Of a DNA stretch of 64,000 nucleotides, positions 49,497 through 58,925 are shown one piece after another. The first letter of the stretch is position 1, and every line of letters begins with the position of its first letter. The position numbers and the translations under genes were made by a program. This DNA is from Patescibacteria group bacterium (GTDB lineage Bacteria; Patescibacteriota; Microgenomatia; UBA10105; UBA927). The DNA lies in NCBI GenBank assembly GCA_049322955.1, contig JBMOPU010000012.1:83581-147580 (forward strand), read 5' to 3'. The notes under the pieces were generated by a model. That model saw nothing but the letters and a program-made list of their open reading frames with translations. It was not told the origin of the DNA and did not search any database.

Positions 49497-51722
49497 TTAC
49501 TTTGTCGGCCAAGGAGAAATAATAAGTGGCCGTGTGTTTTTTTGAGAAATCTTTCCCCAGATTTCCTCCGTCACAAAAGGCATAAACGGATGGAGTAACC
49601 CAAGGAATGTGAGCATGCCCTTCTCGAGAACGGCAAGCGATATCTCTCCCTTTTTCCGTTGCTCGATAGCGATATCGCAGTACCAATGCCAAAACTCATT
49701 GTGCACTGTTTCTGCGGCCAAACCGACACGATATGAATCCAAAAGCTGTGTCACATTCTCTGTAACATCGGCAAGTTTTTTGAGGAACTGTGTATCGCCA
49801 ACCTTCGGATGAGTATCATCAGTGCCCGCGTGTTGTTTTTCCAGCAACACATAGCGTGCGGCATTCCACACCTTATTAGAGAAATTACGCATACCGCGAA
49901 TCGTGTTTTCTCCCACCGCCTTATCCTGGCCGGGGGTTGAACTCATTATTAACGCGATCCGTATGGCATCAGCACCATACTTATCGACCATATCCAACGG
50001 ATTGATGACATTTCCTTTTGACTTACTCATTTTTTGACCCTTTTCGTCTCTGACGAGCCCGTGAAGATAAACGGTTGCAAACGGTGATTTCCCGGTGACG
50101 TACATGCCTAAAAGCATCATTCGCATGACCCAGATCGGCAAAATATCATACCCAGTCTCCATCACCGATGTCGGATAAAATTTTTCAAATACGGCAATGC
50201 CATTCGTCTGCAACGTTACGACAGGCCACTGACCGGACGAAAACCACGTATCAAACGTGTCCGTTTCTTGGATCCATAACCCGTCATCATTCGGCTGGGC
50301 AATGCTTACGACCCAGGGCGCACCGCCGTCTGCCCACGTGCCGACATCAAGGTGTTGGAGGTTTCTTTTAATGTATTCAAATCCGAACTCGTCAATCCAT
50401 TGGGAGAGGGGACCATGTTTTTGTTTCTTCTCGTGATCAAGGAAACTCACCAGTATTTGATGCTCATGTCCTCGTGCGTTGTACCACACCGGGATTCGGA
50501 TGCCCCAAACAATTTGTCTGCTTATATTCCAGTCGCGGATATTGGTAAGCCAATGCCGAAGTATTTTATCCTGACCCGCGCCTAATATCTTGGTTTCCCC
50601 AGAATCAAGTGCACGAAGCGCCCCTTCGACAAGCGGCTTAGTTTTGATAAAAAATTGGGTGAGCGGAAGTGGCTCGAGGACCGTCTTACAGCGATAGCAA
50701 ACGCCTACCGTATGAGTGTAGGCTTCACTGGGTTTGGCCAGTAGCCCCATTGCATCAAGATCCTTTTCAATAACCTCCCGCGCCGCCTTTACCTTCATGC
50801 CGGCATATTTTCCTGCTATCGACGTCAACTTGCCCTGTTTATCGATGACCTGCTTCGGTTCAGGAATCTCTCCGAGATGCCGTTGCCATACCTCAAAGTC
50901 GTTAAAATCGTGATATGGGGTGATTTTGACCACTCCCGTGCCAAACTCAGGGTCAACATACTCATCACCAATTACTTTCAGGGTAAATGACCCTAAGAGT
51001 CCGTCCACCGTGATCTCTTGACCGATATATTTTTTATATCGCTTGTCGGAAGGATGCACTGCTACTGCGGTATCGGCGAACTTTGTTTCCGGTCGGGTTG
51101 TGGCGAGCACAAACGGGCCGTATTTTATGTAATAAAGCTTTGTTGTTTCTTCTGTATGTTCCACCTCAAGTTCCGAATAGCCTGTGCCGCATTTGGTACA
51201 GTAGTTAATGAGTTTTTCCCCACGGTAAATAAGACCTTCCTTGTGGAGTGAAATAAAGGTTTCGAGCACGTTCGCCACGATATCGGGATCGAGAGTGAAT
51301 TTAAACTTCGTCCAGTCAGCTGAAGCCCCCAGCTTTTTCATCTGGTTGACCGCCACTCCTGAATTTTCCTGCACATAGTCCCAGATCATCCGGTACAGCG
51401 TTTCACGATCAAAATTAAAGCGGCTTTTATCTTGTTTAGCGAGCTTTTTTTCGAATACGAATTGCGTTTCAATACCCGCATGGTCAGTGCCGGGAAGCCA
51501 AAGGGAACTGTCTCCCTTCATCCGGTGATATCGAATCAGAATATCCTCAATGGTGATAAACATGGCATGTCCGATATGCAAGGGATCGTTTGCATTAGGA
51601 GGCGGCATAATGATGGAGAAAGGGGGAGCGCTTGGATCTTCTTTGGGCACAAAGTACCCTCCGGATTCCCACATCCGGTAGATGGCATCTTCACACGCTT
51701 TCGGATCAAAGTTTTTGTCCAT
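49497..51722 (-). CDS. valS: Valyl-tRNA synthetase (short form).
   Basis: N-terminal FDPKACEDAIYRMWESGGYF, HIGH (PLHIGHAM), KMSKS (QKMSKSKGNVI). The ATG at 51722 is preferred over the TTG at 51740 used in the ORF track. Confidence 0.85.
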   Translation of the reverse strand: MDKNFDPKACEDAIYRMWESGGYFVPKEDPSAPPFSIIMPPPNANDPLHIGHAMFITIEDILIRYHRMKGDSSLWLPGTDHAGIETQFVFEKKLAKQDKSRFNFDRETLYRMIWDYVQENSGVAVNQMKKLGASADWTKFKFTLDPDIVANVLETFISLHKEGLIYRGEKLINYCTKCGTGYSELEVEHTEETTKLYYIKYGPFVLATTRPETKFADTAVAVHPSDKRYKKYIGQEITVDGLLGSFTLKVIGDEYVDPEFGTGVVKITPYHDFNDFEVWQRHLGEIPEPKQVIDKQGKLTSIAGKYAGMKVKAAREVIEKDLDAMGLLAKPSEAYTHTVGVCYRCKTVLEPLPLTQFFIKTKPLVEGALRALDSGETKILGAGQDKILRHWLTNIRDWNISRQIVWGIRIPVWYNARGHEHQILVSFLDHEKKQKHGPLSQWIDEFGFEYIKRNLQHLDVGTWADGGAPWVVSIAQPNDDGLWIQETDTFDTWFSSGQWPVVTLQTNGIAVFEKFYPTSVMETGYDILPIWVMRMMLLGMYVTGKSPFATVYLHGLVRDEKGQKMSKSKGNVINPLDMVDKYGADAIRIALIMSSTPGQDKAVGENTIRGMRNFSNKVWNAARYVLLEKQHAGTDDTHPKVGDTQFLKKLADVTENVTQLLDSYRVGLAAETVHNEFWHWYCDIAIEQRKKGEISLAVLEKGMLTFLGLLHPFMPFVTEEIWGKISQKNTRPLIISPWPTK

Positions 51723-51973
51723 ATCTCTATTTAACCACAAAAAAAGGTACCGTTTTGTATAAGGACCCCGCCGTGGCGGGATGGTACCACCTTATTTGCT
51801 TCTCGTTTCTGCTATGACGGGCAACCCGTTCAACTTACTTCCTGTTCGGTTGAAAGCTTGTCCGAGGACTGGTCGGACTCAAACGCTTTTCATGATTATT
51901 ATACGGCAGGACACCTTTAGGTGTCAAAAAGCCGAAGGTGGGGGTATGTGGTATCGAATGGGGGAAAACGCGT

Positions 51974-53277: not shown

Positions 53278-53298
53278 TTTGGTATTCACCCGTACAAG

Positions 53299-53370
53299 TG
53301 CCAGCGGCAGGGATCGGACCTGCGACAAATGCCTTATGAAGACACTGCTCTACCACTGAGCTACGCTGGC
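53299..53370 (-). tRNA. tRNA with a CAT anticodon (elongator Met or lysidine-Ile type).
   Basis: Hand-folded 72-nt cloverleaf: acceptor GCCAGCG/CGCTGGC, D arm GCTC-AGTGGTA-GAGC, anticodon loop TTCATAA, T arm GCAGG-TCCGATC-CCTGC. CCA not encoded. Confidence 0.8.
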
Positions 53371-54412: not shown

Positions 54413-54485
54413 TGGTTGCGGGGCCGGGAATCGCACCCGGCCTAGGAGATTATGAGCCTCCTGTGCAACTTTACACTACCCCGCG
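54413..54485 (-). tRNA. Initiator-like tRNA-fMet (CAT anticodon).
   Basis: Hand fold: acceptor CGCGGGG/CCCCGCA with a C1:A72 mismatch, U8A9, anticodon loop CTCATAA, T arm CCGGG-TGCGATT-CCCGG, discriminator A, encoded CCA. The D loop is unusually short (6 nt). Confidence 0.65.
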
Positions 54486-54539: not shown

Positions 54540-55004
54540 CTATATGGTCGGGGGAGAAGAGGGTCTCCGAAATGCCTTAATAAGCTTGGGCGCAATATAC
54601 ATGATAAGACCTGTTACCATTTGGATAAAAAATGCGATGGAAAAATAGGTGGCGACATCAAAATGGAGCACTCGTACTGACCCCTGATCGATACCTGTGA
54701 ACATCTGCGGATATTTCATGATACTGCCGGTTACCATTTGGATAATCCCCAGCACGATAACAAAAAGCATAGCCACGCGGTGCACTCTGCGGCTGTAATA
54801 GGAAAGTCTGCCGATGTCCATATCCGTATTGTAACAAAAAATAGTCATACCGTTTTGACGCGATATGGTATACTGGTCTCCACAAGTGAATAAAAGCGTC
54901 GATCCGGAGGGTTGGAACCGGGGAAAGCTGACTCTTAAATCAAGTACGGAGCCGAAACCGTAAAAAGTCTGGAACGAGTGTCGTAAATAAACGGAGCTCG
55001 TCAT
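54540..55004 (-). CDS. Hypothetical membrane protein with an internally repeated helix motif (IQMVTGxIMY).
   Basis: 154 aa with two hydrophobic helices sharing the motif (...VLGIIQMVTGSIMKY... / ...AFFIQMVTGLIMYIAP...). Confidence 0.35.
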   Translation of the reverse strand: MTSSVYLRHSFQTFYGFGSVLDLRVSFPRFQPSGSTLLFTCGDQYTISRQNGMTIFCYNTDMDIGRLSYYSRRVHRVAMLFVIVLGIIQMVTGSIMKYPQMFTGIDQGSVRVLHFDVATYFSIAFFIQMVTGLIMYIAPKLIKAFRRPSSPPTI

Positions 55005-55207
55005 GAATGAGATTTATCCTCACCTGACGTCCCGCTTGGCGGGATTTTTTGTAGGATAATAAAAGCAAGGTGGCAACGCCTTTTGTGAAGGCCCTTGCAA
55101 ATTTTTCACCATTTTATGGTGGATAATTTGCGAGGGCTTTTATTATGCCCTAGAAAAGGAGTTTCTTATGACAAAAGAAACATTGCATCGGCTGGTACAA
55201 AGCAATT

Positions 55208-56707
55208 TTGCCAGGGAGGAAGTTATACAACACGAATCCCCGGGGTGTCTTTGGTGACGTCGCCGCAATCTCACTTCACGGTGAACCGTATCAACAGATA
55301 CGGGAGGTCGGGGGAATAACGACGCATATCGATAGCAATGATACGCTTCGTCAGTTGGCAAAAAACGCCCGATACAAGGAATTGTTACCGGCAAAAATTT
55401 TTGCGGTGGAACCGTTCCTGTCGGACCTCTTTGAAAAAGACGGCTATTACGGGATTCAGAGAAAGATCGAGCAGGGCGCATCACTCACCTTTGAAGAAGC
55501 GTTTTCGCTTGCCACCTTCGTCTGTATCGGATTGAATATTCCCTTGAGAGAGGTAATAGGAGAGCGGTTAAAAAATAAAATGCCCGAGGACACCCATTTG
55601 CTCCAGGCGACGGCTCTGCTTGCCGCTATGTCCACGAAAGAAGCGTATGTGGGACTTACCGCCGCCGAAATTGCGGGTCTTGTTGCCGCAACGGTGCATT
55701 TGGATACCGTGGTCCGTACGGAATGCGAGAATCCAGTTATCGCGTTCGGGGGGATGGGAGGGGATAAAGGCTATCCGCTGAACGGACACGCCACAAAGCT
55801 TTTCAGTCTTTCGACCCTTGCCGCTATTATTCTATCGGCAGATACACCGGTGCATAAACATCACTCGTACCCCAATACGTCGAAGGTGGCGGGACAAAGT
55901 GCAATCGAAGCATTCGGCGCCCGGTCAGACTTCCAGACCGAGGCATCTTTAGGAGATACCTTTCATGCATCGCAATTGCTTATGACAAGTTGTCATATGA
56001 CGCGAACACTGCACACGCTCTCACATAAGCTGAAAGGCGAGACCGTGAATCATGTGGTGGGTCCGTTGTCCTTTACGATGTCTGCAAAAACACCGCTCCA
56101 CGCAATGATTGGGGTAAATGAAAAAATCCATCCGTCGGTTATCGTGGACGCATTGGCGATTCTTTCACAGAAAGGCTTTCAACGGTACGAAAACAGCGCG
56201 GTGTATTGTGGCACGCTGACGTCTTCACGTGGCGCGGATGTGCTCGATCCAGCGCTTATGAAACACATCGTGGTGCTCGATGAGGTGGCTCCGCCTCCCT
56301 ACGATAGCATCGTGTCCTTTCTGGTAGAGGGTAAAAATGCGGGGACATTCGTCCTATCACCGGAGGATTTCTACGACACCGATACACTCCGTTCGTTTGT
56401 TCCCGAGGCGCTGGCTATTCCCAACGACCGCCATGCAATCATGGAGGCAAATACGAGCGCCATAACGGGGGAGAATATGACGCGTGCCCGATACCTTGCG
56501 ATGACGGTGGGGTTGGGGTTGTTTGTACGGCATTGTCTCGGTGATCCGCAAGCGCTAGATATGAATAATCACCGGGTGCACAGACAAATGCTTCGTGCCT
56601 GTACCCAACGCGGGCTCGATCTTATTCTTTCGGGAAAGGGTCGGGAACAATTAGAAAAATATATTGCGGCATCCAACGTGCACGCAGGAGAGAAAGGAGA
56701 TGTATGA
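55208..56707 (+). CDS. GT3-fold protein (TrpD/anthranilate phosphoribosyltransferase - nucleoside phosphorylase II superfamily), long form of about 500 aa. Possible AMP/nucleoside phosphorylase-like or TrpD2-like. The N-terminus is probably frameshifted; the likely real start is ATG 55168.
   Basis: FGGMGGDKGYPLNGHATKLFSLST and PVHKHHSYPNTSKVAGQSAIEAFG parallel TrpD GTGGDG...N.ST and KHGNRSVSSKSGSADVLEALG. The track ORF begins at a TTG with no RBS. ATG 55168 has an AAAGGAG RBS but is in another frame. Confidence 0.55.
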   Translation: MPGRKLYNTNPRGVFGDVAAISLHGEPYQQIREVGGITTHIDSNDTLRQLAKNARYKELLPAKIFAVEPFLSDLFEKDGYYGIQRKIEQGASLTFEEAFSLATFVCIGLNIPLREVIGERLKNKMPEDTHLLQATALLAAMSTKEAYVGLTAAEIAGLVAATVHLDTVVRTECENPVIAFGGMGGDKGYPLNGHATKLFSLSTLAAIILSADTPVHKHHSYPNTSKVAGQSAIEAFGARSDFQTEASLGDTFHASQLLMTSCHMTRTLHTLSHKLKGETVNHVVGPLSFTMSAKTPLHAMIGVNEKIHPSVIVDALAILSQKGFQRYENSAVYCGTLTSSRGADVLDPALMKHIVVLDEVAPPPYDSIVSFLVEGKNAGTFVLSPEDFYDTDTLRSFVPEALAIPNDRHAIMEANTSAITGENMTRARYLAMTVGLGLFVRHCLGDPQALDMNNHRVHRQMLRACTQRGLDLILSGKGREQLEKYIAASNVHAGEKGDV

Positions 56708-57537
56708 ATATTTTTAAGGAACTTTTTTCCGTCAAAAAACCCATCATCGGTATGATTCATTTGCCTCCGCTTGCCGGGTATGACGGTCATCGGCCGATTG
56801 CGGAAACCAGGCGTCGAATTTTAACCGAGGCAGGCATTTTGGAAGAGCGGGGAGTGCACGGCATTATGATCGAAAACAATTACAGCGTACCGCATCGTGA
56901 GTTTATAAAAAAGGCCGAAGCGCTCGAAATGAAACGTCTTGTGCACGCGGTGACTCGTGCCGTGAAGATCCCCGTAGGAGTAGATGTACTCTGGAGCGGG
57001 TACCAGTCGGCTTTGGTAATCTGCAAGGAAACGGGTGCCCGATTTGTCCGTGTCGCCTCATTTGTTGATGACGTTATGACGCAATACGGGCCGATGCCGG
57101 CGCGGGGAGCTGAAGCGGTTGCAGAGAGAAAGAAGCTCGGTTTGGAGGACTCGGTGGCAATACTGGCGGATGTGCAAGTCAAACATTCGCACATGATGGA
57201 TCCCAAAAAACCGCTCCGACAATCAGTACGGGAGGCGGTGGATACCGGAGCCGATGCTATTATCGTTACCGGAACATGGACGGGAGTGGCCCCGATCATG
57301 AAAGATTTGCATATCGCCAGACGATTCGGACGGGGACTTCCCATTGTGGTGGGAAGCGGATCAACGCCTGAGACTTTGCACAGGTTATTTACCGGTGCCG
57401 ATGCCATCATTGTTGGCTCCGCAATCATGACTGATAAAGTTGTTGATGCACAAAAGCTGTCATCCTATATGGATAGCTATCGATCCTTGCGAGTACGAAA
57501 TTTTCGGAAAGTCAGGTACAATAAGGAGGAACTATGA
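56704..57537 (+). CDS. BtpA/SgcQ-family TIM-barrel protein.
   Basis: KPIIGMIHLPPLAGYDG is the BtpA-family N-terminal signature. Its start overlaps the upstream stop as ATGA. Confidence 0.65.
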   Translation: MNIFKELFSVKKPIIGMIHLPPLAGYDGHRPIAETRRRILTEAGILEERGVHGIMIENNYSVPHREFIKKAEALEMKRLVHAVTRAVKIPVGVDVLWSGYQSALVICKETGARFVRVASFVDDVMTQYGPMPARGAEAVAERKKLGLEDSVAILADVQVKHSHMMDPKKPLRQSVREAVDTGADAIIVTGTWTGVAPIMKDLHIARRFGRGLPIVVGSGSTPETLHRLFTGADAIIVGSAIMTDKVVDAQKLSSYMDSYRSLRVRNFRKVRYNKEEL

Positions 57538-58925
57538 ACATACAAACACATAAGCGGTTACTTTCAGGAATCACACCAAGCGGTGACGGGAGTCTGCATA
57601 TCGGCAATTATCTGGGAGCGGTCCGTCAATTTATTGAGCTCGCTCAGACACATGAGACATTTCTTATGGTTGCAGATCTGCACGGACTTACGACTATTCA
57701 GGACAAGAAACAGTTGCAACACAATATCGAAGCTCTTGTCATCAATGAATTGGCGTTACTTCGGGGTTTCATGAGTGAGGAAGCGTTTAAGAATATTGTC
57801 TTTTTTCGACAGTCGGATGTGCCGTTGCACACCGAGTGTCAATCTATTATCAACAATGTGACCCCTTTGGGATTGTTGAAGCGGGCACATGCATATAAGG
57901 ATAAACTTCAAAAAGATGTGATGGAAGACGACATTAATGTCGGATTGTTCAGTTATCCGATGTTAATGGCCGCGGATATTCTGCTTTATCAGGCGGAACT
58001 GGTTCCGGTGGGGAAGGATCAAAAACAGCATATTGAGATAACGCGTGATGTAGCACAACGATTCAACAAAATTTATAAGAAAAATATCTTTGCGCTTCCG
58101 GATGCTTACATTCCCCAAGAAGTGGCGACGGTTGTGGGTACGGACGGCAAGCGGAAGATGAGTAAATCGTTGGGAAATGTCATTTCGATATTTGAGTCGG
58201 AAGAAATATTGCGAAAACAGGTTATGGGCACCTATACCGATCCTGCAAGAGTGCATGCAACCGACCCCGGCCATATCGAAGGCAATATGGTATTTACGTA
58301 CCTCTCATTTTTTGGGGAACCCGAAAAAGTGGCGGCACTTGCCAAAAGGTATCAGGAAGGCGATGTATCCGATGTTGAAGTAAAAGAATATCTCTTTGAA
58401 AGCCTGCTTAGTTTCTTCGGGCCCGCACGACGTGCCTACAGGGAGTTGAAAGAAAATCCTTCGCTTGTCAAACGAATTCTTGCCGATGGGCAAGGCAGGG
58501 CGCTCGCCGTTGCGACAAAGACGATGGAAGAAGTACGAAAAGCAACGGGAATTACCACCGCCTATTCATTTTTCGCTTACCCCCAGCCGAAAGAGGAGGG
58601 GAGGGTTTCCATAGATGAATTTGCCCGGGTTGAACTTCGGGTCGGCAAAGTGCTGGAAGCAAAAAACAAAGAGGGGAGTGACAAACTCATCCGCTTACTC
58701 GTGACGTTCGGTGAAAAAACTCCTCGAGTTATTTTCACGGGGGTGCGCACATTCGGATATACACCCGAAGACTTTTCGGGGAAGCAATTTTTCTTTATCA
58801 CCAACCTGGCTCCCCGAAAAATGATGGATGAGGAAAGTCAGGGAATGATTCTCGCCGTCGACGGCGAGGACAAGCCGATCTTCCTTTCCGGTGAAGGCAT
58901 GCCGATAGGGGCGAAAATCCGCTGA
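57534..58925 (+). CDS. trpS: Tryptophanyl-tRNA synthetase fused to a C-terminal EMAP-II/Trbp111/CsaA-like tRNA-binding OB domain.
   Basis: SGITPSGDGSLHIGNYLGA (TrpRS HIGH region) and KMSKSLGN. About 110 C-terminal residues (VELRVGKVLEAKNKEGSDKLIRLLVTFGEK...QGMILAV) are typical of the Myf/EMAP tRNA-binding domain. Confidence 0.75.
   Translation: MNIQTHKRLLSGITPSGDGSLHIGNYLGAVRQFIELAQTHETFLMVADLHGLTTIQDKKQLQHNIEALVINELALLRGFMSEEAFKNIVFFRQSDVPLHTECQSIINNVTPLGLLKRAHAYKDKLQKDVMEDDINVGLFSYPMLMAADILLYQAELVPVGKDQKQHIEITRDVAQRFNKIYKKNIFALPDAYIPQEVATVVGTDGKRKMSKSLGNVISIFESEEILRKQVMGTYTDPARVHATDPGHIEGNMVFTYLSFFGEPEKVAALAKRYQEGDVSDVEVKEYLFESLLSFFGPARRAYRELKENPSLVKRILADGQGRALAVATKTMEEVRKATGITTAYSFFAYPQPKEEGRVSIDEFARVELRVGKVLEAKNKEGSDKLIRLLVTFGEKTPRVIFTGVRTFGYTPEDFSGKQFFFITNLAPRKMMDEESQGMILAVDGEDKPIFLSGEGMPIGAKIR

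What the first reader, a model, noticed from the sequence alone, without database searches (positions are those of the whole stretch)
55168..58925. Operon of a long TrpD-fold (GT3) protein, a BtpA-family TIM barrel and TrpRS: a possible undescribed PRPP/nucleoside-linked module
The three genes are translationally coupled (ATGA overlaps at 56704 and 57534). The first has the TrpD phosphoribosyltransferase signature motifs (GGMGGDKG...N...ST; KHHSYPNTSKVAGQSAIEAFG) but is about 500 aa, the size of archaeal AMP phosphorylases of the same fold. The second is a BtpA/SgcQ TIM barrel with no defined biochemistry. No other trp biosynthesis genes are present. A phosphoribosyl-transfer or nucleoside-phosphorolysis enzyme plus a TIM barrel resembles the AMP-phosphorylase to R15P-isomerase salvage route. 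The BtpA protein would substitute for the isomerase, or the pair could make or salvage a tryptophan-related metabolite for the co-transcribed TrpRS.
Basis: partly seen in the sequence, partly recalled or inferred. Interest (0 to 1): 0.7.

Follow-up and report, generated by a model that had tools for sequence, protein, structure and literature searches.

The report
Tryptophan-starvation operon with sensing frameshift
In an ultrasmall CPR bacterium, an operon encoding a TrpD-like enzyme, a BtpA barrel protein and tryptophanyl-tRNA synthetase appears to be switched on by tryptophan shortage in two ways, through a tRNA-sensing T-box RNA and through a release-factor-2-style +1 ribosomal frameshift at a tryptophan codon, and this points to an undescribed tryptophan-supply module that is also found in DPANN archaea.

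Summary
A strong SD plus ATG opens a 28-codon leader that ends in GGGG-UGU-CUU-UGG-UGA. This is the prfB +1 frameshift cassette with a Trp codon in place of the stop. Seventeen distinct relatives in two distant clades keep this layout (CUU_UGG or GUU_UGG) and lack an in-frame ATG. Some have a stop exactly there. All 35 distinct relatives without the site have a normal ATG.

A T-box leader with an invariant UGG specifier and a UGGC bulge lies upstream (54890-55146). Antiterminator matches precede the TrpD-like gene in 34 of 61 related loci.

Verdict: this is a tryptophan-starvation regulon whose enzyme chemistry is unknown. The AMP-phosphorylase reading is not supported. The Trp-related reading is supported.

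The parts
54855..54874 (+). Conserved promoter-like element (TTGAC ... TGgTATACT, extended -10)
   Evidence: Conserved in 5 relatives directly 5' of the leader RNA. Its function is inferred only.
54890..55146 (+). T-box(Trp)-type leader RNA of a divergent 'type B' with an ultrashort Stem I. It contains:
- specifier hairpin 54904-54921, with UGG at 54913-54915
- long-range helix 55014-55020/55053-55059
- Stem III 55029-55045
- antiterminator 55065-55098, with the 7-nt bulge UGGCAAC at 55071-55077
- terminator hairpin plus U-tract 55088-55146
   Evidence: - A covariance model of the antiterminator, built only from other lineages, hits 55065-55098 at 33.5 bits, E 9e-8. This is the best hit in the window.
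- 6 of 10 antiterminator pairs show compensatory changes.
- All 5 pairs of the specifier stem show compensatory changes, while UGG in its loop is invariant.
- The terminator was found, and its covariation.
- Rfam RF00230 itself does not hit this copy.
55156..55170 (+). Shine-Dalgarno AAGGAG (55156-55161) and the ATG (55168) of the leader frame
   Evidence: The SD plus ATG is invariant in all 8 distinct close relatives.
55168..55257 (+). Leader reading frame (frame 0): 28 sense codons to CUU, then UGG and UGA. Peptide: MTKETLHRLVQSNFAREEVIQHESPGCLW*
   Evidence: The frame stays open from the ATG to the site in 17 distinct sequences, with a conserved length of 27-28 codons in clade 1. There is no codon-phase signal, so the peptide sequence itself is not constrained.
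55242..55257 (+). +1 frameshift cassette: SD-like GGGG (55242-45), E-site UGU (55246-48), P-site CUU (55249-51), A-site UGG Trp (55252-54), then UGA (55255-57). The +1 frame resumes at GGU 55253.
   Evidence: - The relatives' site GGGG UAU CUU UG(G) matches the prfB cassette GGGG UAU CUU UG(A), recalled from memory, over 12 nt. The window has UGU in place of UAU.
- The cassette is invariant in clade 1.
- Clade 2 has AGGGG UUA GUU UGG, with a TAG in the GT3 frame directly before UUU.
55253..56707 (+). TrpD-like (GT3-fold) protein, +1 frame. The predicted full product is 55168-55251 joined to 55253-56704, about 512 aa.
   Evidence: - Mechanical ORF 55208-56707.
- PF00591 scores 17.5 bits (GA 27) and TIGR01245 trpD scores 36.8 bits (cut-off 199).
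- Codon periodicity starts at the shift site.
- 0 Trp residues.
56704..57537 (+). BtpA/SgcQ-family phosphate-binding TIM barrel. Its start overlaps the GT3 stop (ATGA), and it has its own SD, GAAAGGAG.
57534..58925 (+). Tryptophanyl-tRNA synthetase with a C-terminal tRNA_bind (EMAP-like) domain. Its start overlaps the BtpA stop (ATGA), and it has its own SD, AAGGAGG. It contains 0 Trp residues.
   Evidence: TIGR00233 scores 271.7 bits and PF01588 scores 66.6 bits. The overlap was read. The Trp count comes from the translation.

Best explanation
This is the tryptophan-starvation operon of a CPR (Patescibacteria, Gottesmanbacteria-like) bacterium. Its first gene is made only through a programmed +1 ribosomal frameshift.

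Step 1 (shown in silico): transcription is gated by a T-box leader. Its UGG specifier and UGGC bulge fit uncharged tRNA-Trp (anticodon CCA, discriminator G73), which would stabilise the antiterminator over the terminator.

Step 2 (the recoding is shown comparatively, the sensing is inferred): ribosomes start at the SD-ATG at 55168 and read 28 codons. With CUU in the P site and UGG in the A site, and helped by an SD-like GGGG 3 nt upstream and a weak E-site codon, they slip +1 (CUU to UUU) when Trp-tRNA-Trp is slow to arrive. They then continue into the TrpD-like protein. When Trp-tRNA-Trp is plentiful they read UGG and stop at UGA. This is the RF2 (prfB) autoregulatory cassette with a 'hungry' Trp codon replacing the stop. 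It makes output of the TrpD-like protein rise as tRNA-Trp charging falls. Through coupling or polarity, the overlapping BtpA and TrpRS genes would rise as well.

Step 3 (inferred): the Trp-free TrpD-like enzyme keeps the PRPP/phosphoribosyl site but not the anthranilate site. It catalyses a reversible phosphoribosyl transfer on a Trp-related aromatic base or conjugate other than anthranilate. BtpA (or, in other lineages, HAD phosphatase plus a RihC-like nucleoside hydrolase, plus or minus a PfkB kinase) processes the ribose-phosphate part. The net effect is to raise the tryptophan available to TrpRS in an organism that cannot make it. The exact substrate is unknown.
For: Frameshift:
- The ATG at 55168 is +1-offset from the GT3 frame, and the TTG at 55208 has no SD.
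- 8 distinct clade-1 sequences keep SD, ATG, 27-28 codons, then GG(G/A)G U(A/G)U CUU UGG. L001, L002 and L026 have no canonical in-frame start.
- 9 distinct clade-2 sequences (~44% identity) have AGGGG UUA GUU UGG, mostly with an in-frame TAG at the junction.
- The split is clean: loci with the site have no usable in-frame ATG, and all 35 distinct loci without the site have an ATG 8-33 codons before the conserved N-terminus.
- The two clades are far apart in the tree.
- Coding periodicity begins at the site.
- SD-like stimulators, slippery P sites, hungry A sites and weak E sites are the established promoters of +1 frameshifting (PMC2377451; PMC5009743).

Trp specificity:
- The T-box antiterminator model hits the window at E 9e-8.
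- It finds 37 sites in 502 kb of relatives: 34 just upstream of the GT3 gene and 3 upstream of ValRS.
- UGG is invariant in the specifier loop while its stem covaries.
- The ValRS T-box in the same window has GUC and UGGU at the equivalent places, which serves as an internal control.
- The bulge reads UGGC or UGGU, as in known Trp T-boxes (TBDB). The neighbouring tRNA-Trp genes have G73.
- A relative's leader scores 55.3 bits with Rfam T-box.
- Frameshift sites occur exactly where TrpRS is downstream in the same operon, 12 of 12 assessable loci.
- TrpR/YerC-like genes are present in 10 loci, and tRNA-Trp genes adjoin the module in 3 lineages.
- The GT3 family has 5 Trp in 16,023 residues, against 1.13% in neighbouring proteins. 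TrpRS, the nucleoside hydrolase and the AstE-like protein are also depleted.

Enzyme:
- The GTGGD, ST, KH and DE motifs are kept, but Arg becomes Glu278 and KHGN becomes KHHS.
- It is a discrete family of 121 hits among 1.84 billion representatives.
- BtpA, HAD or IUNH lies directly downstream in 46 of 53 distinct loci.
- HAD fusions exist.
- GT3-BtpA and BtpA-TrpRS pairs are also found in Nano-, Mars- and other DPANN archaea.
Against: - Nothing here is experimental.
- Rfam's T-box model does not hit the window's own leader or its closest relatives. Its Stem I lacks the elbow-binding motif that the review says is essential in transcriptional T-boxes.
- Frameshifting at a sense codon is normally inefficient.
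- GUU to UUU (clade 2) re-pairs poorly.
- Some clade-2 leaders lack a good SD.
- The predicted hairpin around the site has little covariation.
- BtpA and TrpRS have strong SDs of their own, so the frameshift may control only the first gene.
- The leader could instead act as a regulatory uORF.
- The chemistry is unresolved. A forward PRPP transfer followed by HAD and nucleoside hydrolase would be a futile cycle. BtpA has no decisive structural neighbour.
- The rest of the genome could not be searched for trp genes.
Confidence: 0.6

Rival explanations
1. No frameshift occurs. The TrpD-like protein starts at TTG 55208, or at a non-canonical codon in relatives. The conserved upstream frame is a regulatory leader peptide whose Trp codon stalls ribosomes. 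It would work like the rtpLP leader of the B. subtilis anti-TRAP operon or like classical attenuation, controlling initiation or mRNA structure downstream.
For: WIN, L003, L004 and L005 do have a TTG or GTG at the same in-frame position. The leader overlaps the putative start. Dual sensing by a T-box plus a Trp-codon leader is precedented (PMC4027176). The segment upstream of the site shows no codon periodicity in either frame.
Against: The TTG has no SD. L001 has ATA there, L002 has an in-frame TGA, and L026 and most of clade 2 have an in-frame stop at or just before the junction with no start after it. Yet the residues that follow are conserved family-wide and structured. The conserved nucleotides are those of a prfB-type shift cassette (SD-like, 3 nt, NUU UGG) and not those of a start site.
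Confidence: 0.12
2. This is a general nucleotide/ribose salvage module of the AMP-phosphorylase to R15P-isomerase type. The GT3 protein would phosphorolyse a nucleotide, and BtpA would replace the R15P isomerase. Proximity to TrpRS would be inherited synteny.
For: - Same fold superfamily.
- The partner genes are nucleoside/ribose enzymes: RihC-like hydrolase, HAD, PfkB.
- The Brassicibacter BtpA lies between a uridine-phosphorylase-like gene, a PfkB kinase and an Fe-ADH, behind a nucleoside ABC transporter.
Against: - The gene itself, not only TrpRS, sits behind a UGG-specifier T-box in lineages where TrpRS is divergent.
- The protein is essentially Trp-free.
- TrpR-like and tRNA-Trp neighbours are present.
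Confidence: 0.1
3. The module acts on tRNA-Trp or on the charging reaction rather than on a small-molecule Trp precursor. The GT3 protein would bind or modify tRNA-Trp (as the TrpD2/YbiB branch binds nucleic acid), or it would remove a mischarging or competing ligand.
For: - tRNA-Trp genes adjoin the module.
- TrpRS is duplicated in several loci.
- A TrpRS is fused to an aminoacyl-tRNA editing domain in close relatives.
Against: The PRPP-binding motifs (GxGGD, KH.., DE) are invariant, as in catalytic TrpD. The partners are small-molecule ribose/nucleoside enzymes. No nucleic-acid-binding domain was detected in the N-terminal extension.
Confidence: 0.1
4. It is the organism's ordinary trpD, working in a complete tryptophan pathway encoded elsewhere in the genome.
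For: TrpD is the best structural and sequence match. Some sources annotate relatives as anthranilate phosphoribosyltransferase. T-box(Trp) control is typical of trp operons.
Against: - TIGR01245 scores 36.8 bits against a 199 cut-off.
- The anthranilate-carboxylate Arg is replaced by Glu.
- A ~120-aa N-terminal extension is present.
- None of 53 distinct loci shows a trpE/G/F/C/A/B neighbour.
- Canonical TrpDs barely register with the family profile.
Confidence: 0.03

Closest known systems
prfB (release factor 2) autoregulatory +1 programmed frameshift
   Same: - An SD-like G-run lies 3 nt before the P-site codon.
- UAU-type weak E-site codon.
- CUU P-site codon slipping to UUU.
- A short leader of ~25-28 codons.
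- The product of the operon relieves the pause.
- Relatives read GGGG UAU CUU UG-, 12 nt identical to the E. coli site (recalled from memory).
   Different: The A-site codon is the sense codon UGG, not UGA. The sensed quantity would be Trp-tRNA-Trp rather than RF2. The shifted product is an enzyme, with TrpRS two genes downstream. A second clade uses GUU_UGG.
Ty1 CUU_AGG_C and 'hungry codon' +1 frameshifting
   Same: [quoted passage not shown]
   Different: Ty1 relies on a constitutively rare tRNA in yeast. Starvation-induced hungry-codon shifts in bacteria were known from engineered or adventitious sites, and the 2016 review states that their natural use is unclear. Here the site is conserved, obligatory for the gene, and set in a Trp regulon.
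B. subtilis anti-TRAP (rtpA/at) operon
   Same: Transcription is controlled by a T-box(Trp) and translation by a Trp-codon-containing leader. Both respond to uncharged tRNA-Trp (PMC4027176).
   Different: There, the stalled ribosome unmasks the rtpA SD and no frame change occurs. The regulated protein is a TRAP antagonist and not an enzyme.
T-box riboswitches, especially the ultrashort-Stem-I class (actinobacterial ileS)
   Same: The specifier lies in the loop of a short first hairpin. There is a 7-nt bulge with UGGN next to helix A1, helix A2, and Stem III.
   Different: It acts through an intrinsic terminator, whereas ultrashort Stem I was described for translational T-boxes. The middle region of the window's 'type B' is unlike the Rfam model (no RF00230 hit). 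It occurs in CPR bacteria.
Anthranilate phosphoribosyltransferase TrpD (GT3 / nucleoside phosphorylase-II fold)
   Different: - ~120-residue N-terminal extension and an 8-residue insertion after GGD.
- KHGN becomes KHHS.
- The anthranilate-binding Arg becomes Glu.
- An invariant His/Cys-rich segment is present.
- No trp operon.
- Scores are far below the family cut-offs.
AMP phosphorylase - ribose-1,5-bisphosphate isomerase - RuBisCO pathway
   Same: The first enzyme belongs to the same fold superfamily. The logic is a base-releasing or base-attaching enzyme followed by a sugar-phosphate enzyme. The pathway occurs in CPR/DPANN-type organisms (from memory).
BtpA/SgcQ family (PF03437)
   Same: A clear Pfam member. 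It is a phosphate-binding (beta/alpha)8 barrel with a GSG phosphate loop.
   Different: No biochemical function is known for the family. The cyanobacterial 'photosystem I biogenesis' name cannot apply here. In this setting the gene is coupled to a TrpD-like gene and to TrpRS in two domains of life.

Membership tests
TrpD, anthranilate phosphoribosyltransferase (TIGR01245 / PF00591) | Scores above the curated family cut-off | tested here: not met
   TIGR01245 scores 36.8 bits against a cut-off of 199.05. PF00591 scores 17.5 bits against a GA of 27.
TrpD, anthranilate phosphoribosyltransferase (TIGR01245 / PF00591) | Two-domain GT3 fold with the PRPP/Mg2+ motifs (GTGGD, S-T, KHGN, D-E) | tested here: met
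TrpD, anthranilate phosphoribosyltransferase (TIGR01245 / PF00591) | Basic residue (Arg/Lys in GxRTxFN) that binds the anthranilate carboxylate | tested here: not met
   It aligns to Glu278 (GETVNH), which is at least 90% conserved in the family. The role of this residue in TrpD is recalled from memory.
TrpD, anthranilate phosphoribosyltransferase (TIGR01245 / PF00591) | Genomic association with trpE/G/F/C/B/A | tested here: not met
   None was found in the annotated ~60 of the window's 64 kb or in 53 distinct related loci. Whole genomes were not searchable.
AMP phosphorylase / thymidine phosphorylase (NP-II) | C-terminal PYNP_C domain and closest structural similarity to NP-II enzymes | tested here: not met
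BtpA/SgcQ family | Pfam PF03437 above the gathering score, and a TIM-barrel fold | tested here: met
   155.7 bits against a GA of 30. The AF2 model is an 8-stranded barrel with pLDDT 93. NCBIfam TIGR00259 scores 141.9, just under its 153.4 cut-off.
Tryptophanyl-tRNA synthetase | TIGR00233 above its cut-off, with a class I W/Y catalytic domain | tested here: met
   271.7 bits against 176.75. PF00579 scores 204.5 bits.
T-box riboswitch (RF00230) | Rfam covariance model at the gathering score | tested here: not met
   No hit on the window leader even at E<=10, and none on L001. A relative's leader (L034) reaches 55.3 bits against a GA of 93, with Stem I truncated.
T-box riboswitch (RF00230) | Antiterminator made of helix A1, a 7-nt bulge starting with UGGN directly next to A1, and helix A2, mutually exclusive with a terminator plus U-tract | tested here: met
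   - Window 55065-55098 scores 33.5 bits, E 9e-8, with a model built from other lineages.
- The bulge reads UGGCAAC.
- 6 of 10 pairs covary.
- The terminator overlaps the 3' half of the antiterminator.
T-box riboswitch (RF00230) | Specifier codon in Stem I matching the regulated amino acid, with the bulge N matching the tRNA discriminator | tested here: met
   UGG is invariant in the loop of a covarying hairpin in all GT3 leaders examined. N is C or U, and the local tRNA-Trp genes have G73. The ValRS leader has GUC and UGGU.
T-box riboswitch (RF00230) | Long Stem I with the distal interdigitated T-loop (elbow-binding) motif | tested here: not met
   Stem I is a 4-6 bp hairpin with an 8-10 nt loop. 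This matches the 'ultrashort' class described in PMC7583486.
T-box riboswitch (RF00230) | Binds uncharged cognate tRNA and causes read-through | not testable with these tools
   Needs in vitro transcription and binding assays.
prfB-type +1 programmed ribosomal frameshift | An SD-like element about 3 nt 5' of a slippery CUU whose +1 codon is UUU | tested here: met
   GGGG-UGU-CUU-U at 55242-55252. Relatives have GGGG-UAU-CUU-U.
prfB-type +1 programmed ribosomal frameshift | An in-frame stop codon (UGA) in the A site as the pause signal | tested here: not met
   The A-site codon is UGG (Trp) in all 17 distinct sequences.
prfB-type +1 programmed ribosomal frameshift | The full-length conserved protein can be made only by changing frame | tested here: met
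   There is no in-frame ATG in any site-bearing locus apart from one chance ATG in L025, and several have in-frame stops at the junction. All 35 distinct loci without the site have an ATG.
prfB-type +1 programmed ribosomal frameshift | Frameshifting demonstrated, and responsive to the sensed factor | not testable with these tools
   Needs reporter assays, proteomics or ribosome profiling.

The most novel reading that the evidence does not exclude
This would be a natural, conserved amino-acid sensor built from a programmed +1 frameshift. The RF2 autoregulatory cassette has been re-purposed with a 'hungry' UGG codon, so that the ribosome itself measures Trp-tRNA-Trp supply. It is stacked on a T-box that measures uncharged tRNA-Trp. 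Together they gate a previously unrecognised, Trp-free, two-enzyme tryptophan-supply pathway (a TrpD-like phosphoribosyltransferase plus a BtpA barrel). That pathway is shared, and linked to TrpRS, in CPR bacteria and DPANN archaea, organisms thought to have no route to tryptophan other than uptake.
Probability: 0.45. Interest if true: 0.92.

Novelty: new variant of a known kind. Interest (0 to 1): 0.85.

Why it matters
1. Recoding. Hungry-codon frameshifting has been a laboratory phenomenon for decades, and the 2016 review (PMC5009743) states that its natural use is unclear. A conserved and obligatory CUU_UGG / GUU_UGG site in a Trp regulon would be a natural example of a ribosome-level amino-acid sensor. 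It is directly testable with a simple reporter.

2. Riboswitches. It extends T-boxes to CPR bacteria, in a form not described for terminator-acting T-boxes (ultrashort Stem I).

3. Metabolism. It gives a regulatory handle on the function of two orphan families, BtpA/SgcQ and a new TrpD-like clade. They belong to the tryptophan economy of ultrasmall symbionts in both prokaryotic domains. This bears on how CPR and DPANN organisms obtain an amino acid they cannot synthesise.

4. Annotation. These genes are currently called with wrong starts, truncated, or labelled 'anthranilate phosphoribosyltransferase'.

Tried and rejected
- Rfam at gathering score on the window, and E<=10 scans of the leader, gave only tRNAs and noise. 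No T-box or other known leader was found. The T-box was found by eye in an alignment and then confirmed with purpose-built models.
- A model of the specifier domain built from type-A leaders scores the window's hairpin at only 9.6 bits, E 2.8. The 5' domain is therefore supported by alignment and covariation and not by that model.
- Sequence search against the PDB gave only weak TrpD hits for GT3 and nothing useful for BtpA.
- Literature searches on BtpA/SgcQ, PF03437/COG0434, T-boxes in CPR, frameshifting in CPR, and the Patescibacteria Tn-seq paper found nothing on this module.
- No prfB gene was found in the window or the loci, so the organism's own RF2 cassette could not be compared.
- A hairpin pairing a C-rich stretch of the leader with the SD-like G-run is predicted in both clades but has little covariation. 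It is left as unproven.
- Sequencing error or pseudogene as the cause of the frame break was rejected. The same break recurs in many independent assemblies, and the protein downstream is under purifying selection.
- Transcriptional slippage was rejected, because the longest homopolymer at the site is U3.
- The two Pfam-negative genes flanking the DPANN BtpA were read by eye as possible divergent GT3 genes, and they are not.

Full report
**What is there.** The window comes from a CPR/Patescibacteria bacterium. Identical or near-identical proteins are labelled 'Patescibacteria group bacterium', and the closest named relatives are Candidatus Gottesmanbacteria MAGs. At the reported coordinates there are three co-directional genes:
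- an ORF 55208-56707 with TrpD-like motifs
- a BtpA-family gene, 56704-57537
- a TrpRS gene, 57534-58925, with a C-terminal tRNA-binding domain

The stop and start codons overlap as ATGA at both junctions. Each downstream gene also has a strong SD of its own. FtsH follows 22 nt later. Gene calls with Pfam labels recovered for about 60 of the 64 kb show a glycan-synthesis cluster, Mur/YidC-type housekeeping genes and ValRS. They show no trp biosynthesis gene, RuBisCO or e2b2 isomerase. The first ~1 kb, ~22-23.5 kb and ~44-46.7 kb were not annotated.

**The start of the first gene is a frame break.** It lies in a different frame from the TrpD-like ORF and runs into UGA at 55255. The TrpD-like frame opens after a TGA at 55169. 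Its first canonical start is a TTG at 55208 with no SD.

In five close relatives the SD plus ATG and a block reading GGGG-UAU-CUU-UGG-CGA are invariant, while the sequence between them drifts. With metagenome relatives added, eight distinct sequences (67-97% protein identity) keep the ATG, 27-28 codons, then GG(G/A)G U(A/G)U CUU UGG. The TrpD-like frame is always +1. L001, L002 and L026 have no canonical in-frame start at all, and L002 has an in-frame TGA where the window has TTG.

A second clade, about 44% identical and mostly fused to a HAD domain, has AGGGG-UUA-GUU-UGG-CUC, which in the protein frame reads AGG GGU UAG UUU GGC. A stop therefore sits directly before the first conserved codons, and an upstream ATG lies in the -1 register.

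Across 53 distinct loci the split is clean. The 18 loci with an NUU_UGG site have no usable in-frame ATG. The 35 without it all have an ATG 8-33 codons before the conserved V-A-x-I-x-L-x-G-E-P-Y N-terminus. The two site-bearing clades are far apart in a neighbour-joining tree. Third-position variability appears in the TrpD-like frame exactly from the shift site onward (0.76/0.67/1.28). The leader shows no periodicity in either frame. The leader therefore only has to be translated, not to encode anything.

Sequencing error, pseudogenisation and transcriptional slippage (U3 only) do not fit these data.

**Why this looks like a sensor.** The cassette is the RF2 (prfB) autoregulatory site. The E. 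coli site, AGG GGG UAU CUU UGA C, is recalled from memory. The cassette here has an SD-like G-run 3 nt upstream, a weak A/U-rich E-site codon, and CUU slipping to UUU, but the UGA stop is replaced by UGG. These are the elements that the kinetic and experimental literature names as promoters of +1 frameshifting. A 'hungry' A-site codon is the element that couples efficiency to aminoacyl-tRNA supply (PMC2377451; PMC5009743). That review also says the natural use of hungry-codon shifting is unclear.

The sensed codon is Trp, and the operon contains TrpRS. In all 12 site-bearing loci long enough to judge, TrpRS lies downstream in the same orientation. In loci without the site it is mostly upstream and divergent. 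In the window the frame-0 reading ends at UGA immediately after UGG.

I therefore infer the following. With ample Trp-tRNA-Trp the ribosome reads UGG and terminates. With an empty A site it shifts and makes the enzyme. The recoding itself I rate at about 0.85, and its regulatory, Trp-sensing nature at about 0.6.

**A T-box in front of it.** Between a conserved promoter-like element and the SD lies a conserved ~255-nt leader. Its 3' part reads GCAAGG-UGGCAAC-GCCUU-uugug-AAGGC-CCUUGC. This is helix A1, a 7-nt bulge beginning UGGN next to A1, and helix A2. It overlaps a long terminator hairpin followed by a U-tract. This is the defining T-box discriminator (PMC7583486).

Rfam's RF00230 does not hit this copy. 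It does hit a relative's leader at 55.3 bits (E 1e-11), with Stem I collapsed to 12 nt. A covariance model of the antiterminator built only from such other-lineage leaders finds window 55065-55098 as its best hit (33.5 bits, E 9e-8). In 502 kb of related loci it finds 37 sites: 34 just upstream of the TrpD-like gene and 3 upstream of ValRS. Six of ten antiterminator pairs show compensatory changes.

The first hairpin of every leader has a covarying stem (5 of 5 pairs compensated) and an invariant UGG followed by a purine in its loop. The bulge reads UGGC or UGGU, the pattern reported for Trp T-boxes. The tRNA-Trp genes found beside the module have G73.

The window supplies its own control. The second-best antiterminator hit and the best specifier-domain hit lie upstream of ValRS (51759-51889, minus strand). 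There the loop triplet is GUC (Val) and the bulge is UGGU (A73), and both are conserved in relatives.

The T-box precedes the TrpD-like gene even where TrpRS is encoded divergently elsewhere. The TrpD-like gene itself is therefore under tRNA-Trp control.

**Other Trp links.**
- TrpR/YerC-family genes flank the module in 10 loci.
- tRNA-Trp genes adjoin it in three lineages. In one of them the gene lies 3 nt before the leader ATG.
- Several loci carry two TrpRS genes.
- The TrpD-like family has 5 Trp in 16,023 residues (0.03%), against 1.13% in neighbouring ORFs. TrpRS (0.24%), the nucleoside hydrolase (0.17%) and the AstE-like deacylase (0.15%) are also depleted. This fits proteins that must be made when tryptophan is missing.

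**What the proteins are.** The TrpD-like protein is not a canonical TrpD. TIGR01245 scores 36.8 bits against a 199 cut-off, and PF00591 is below its gathering score. A family profile finds only 121 proteins among 1.84 billion representatives, and canonical TrpDs sit at the noise edge.

**Conserved company.** In 46 of 53 distinct loci the TrpD-like gene is followed directly by one of these:
- BtpA (28 loci)
- a HAD phosphatase, separate or fused (19 loci), usually with a RihC-like nucleoside hydrolase (17 loci)

A PfkB kinase (6 loci) or an AstE/aspartoacylase-like deacylase (7 loci) is sometimes present as well.

The pairing is also found outside bacteria:
- Nanoarchaeota have an overlapping GT3-BtpA pair.
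- A DPANN archaeon has BtpA overlapping an archaeal TrpRS.
- A Marsarchaeote has two TrpRS genes divergent from BtpA-GT3, next to an M20 hydrolase and an EamA transporter.

The archaeal GT3 proteins are intermediate (trpD 144-150 bits) and also lack the Arg. In a Firmicute, BtpA lies in a nucleoside-uptake and catabolism operon.

**Most likely mechanism, and what is inferred.**

Shown in silico:
- operon structure
- a family distinct from TrpD
- the T-box discriminator and the UGG specifier
- an obligatory frame change at NUU_UGG
- Trp depletion of the proteins
- cross-domain linkage to TrpRS

Inferred:
- uncharged tRNA-Trp opens the T-box
- an empty A site at UGG drives the shift
- the enzyme performs a reversible phosphoribosyl transfer on a non-anthranilate, Trp-related base or conjugate
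- BtpA, or HAD with or without the hydrolase, disposes of or rearranges the ribose-phosphate
- the net effect is to increase tryptophan for TrpRS

I cannot name the substrate. A forward PRPP transfer followed by a phosphatase and a hydrolase would be futile. A release (salvage) direction therefore seems more coherent. One possibility is cleavage of a ribosyl- or ribulosyl-type conjugate, with the PfkB kinase feeding it in. That is speculation.

**Comparison with known systems, and novelty.** The regulatory logic has a precedent in the B. subtilis anti-TRAP operon, where a T-box(Trp) is combined with a Trp-codon leader. The machinery is that of prfB. The combination has not been described in the literature I could search. 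It consists of a prfB-type cassette with a sense Trp codon, conserved in two clades and obligatory for an enzyme, placed behind a terminator-type T-box with an ultrashort Stem I, in CPR bacteria. I class it as a new variant of known kinds, attached to a protein pair of unknown function.

Noticed in passing
window 51740-51930 (- strand): A second T-box leader of the same ultrashort-Stem-I type lies upstream of ValRS (49497-51740).
- Near-consensus promoter TTGACA-N17-TATAAT.
- Specifier hairpin GUCCG-ACCAGUCCU-CGGAC with GUC (Val).
- Bulge UGGUACC.
- Terminator GGUACC...GGUACC followed by U7.
It is missed by Rfam at the gathering score.
   Followed up: yes
window 54890-55146; L034 3113-3305: These T-boxes act through intrinsic terminators yet have ultrashort Stem I hairpins without the elbow-binding double T-loop. 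The review (PMC7583486) describes that motif as essential in transcriptional T-boxes. Two sub-types exist. Type A is seen by RF00230 at sub-threshold score. Type B (the window) is not seen at all.
   Followed up: partly
L002 8318-10177; also L001 4715- and L026: In the closest sister lineage the bacterial TrpRS carries an N-terminal aminoacyl-tRNA editing domain (PF04073 tRNA_edit, 52.6 bits). From memory, TrpRS enzymes are not known to have editing domains.
   Followed up: partly
L002 4874-5965; L022 3405-4367 and 9961-10944; L079 2531-4837: Several loci carry two TrpRS genes around the module. In L002 an archaeal-type TrpRS paralog ends 10 nt after the leader ATG of the frameshifted gene. 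This suggests exchange of the module between DPANN and CPR organisms.
   Followed up: no
L061 3786-3945; L022 8324-8397; L023 8103-8177 (-): tRNA-Trp genes (anticodon CCA, discriminator G73) lie inside or beside the module. In L061 the order is T-box, tRNA-Trp, then 3 nt later the leader ATG of the frameshifted GT3::HAD gene.
   Followed up: partly
window 54540-55004 (- strand): The mechanical 154-aa ORF is over-called. Gene callers give 54540-54848 (102 aa, weak DUF4405). The apparent conservation of its N-terminal 50 codons is the T-box RNA on the opposite strand.
   Followed up: yes
L073 285-10686 (Brassicibacter mesophilus): This is a BtpA-containing operon. In order it encodes:
- a GntR regulator
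- a Bmp-type nucleoside ABC transporter
- an isochorismatase-like hydrolase
- a PfkB kinase (with R1P-kinase-like hits)
- a uridine-phosphorylase-like protein
- BtpA
- an Fe-ADH
- a TrpA-like barrel
It looks like an uncharacterised nucleoside-ribose catabolic route and could reveal BtpA's chemistry.
   Followed up: partly
window 55208-55250; L057 1190-1245: Both frameshift clades have a predicted hairpin that pairs a C-rich stretch (GCCCCGG / GCCCCU) about 35 nt upstream with the SD-like G-run next to the shift site. There is also a conserved internal GGAGG at 55214-55218. Covariation is weak and the role is unknown.
   Followed up: partly
L026 1696-1893 (-); L001 175-372 (-): Group I intron matches (73 and 63 bits) lie upstream of the module in two relatives. 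In L026 the match is ~1.6 kb from the nearest detected tRNA gene. The host gene was not identified.
   Followed up: no
P0143: A BtpA homolog is fused to a low-molecular-weight phosphatase domain (PF01451). Together with the HAD fusions of the GT3 protein, this suggests that a dephosphorylation step belongs to the pathway.
   Followed up: no
window 53298-53370 and 54413-54485 (- strand): Two tRNA-Met (CAT) genes lie within 1.2 kb of each other just upstream of the operon. Relatives keep both.
   Followed up: no
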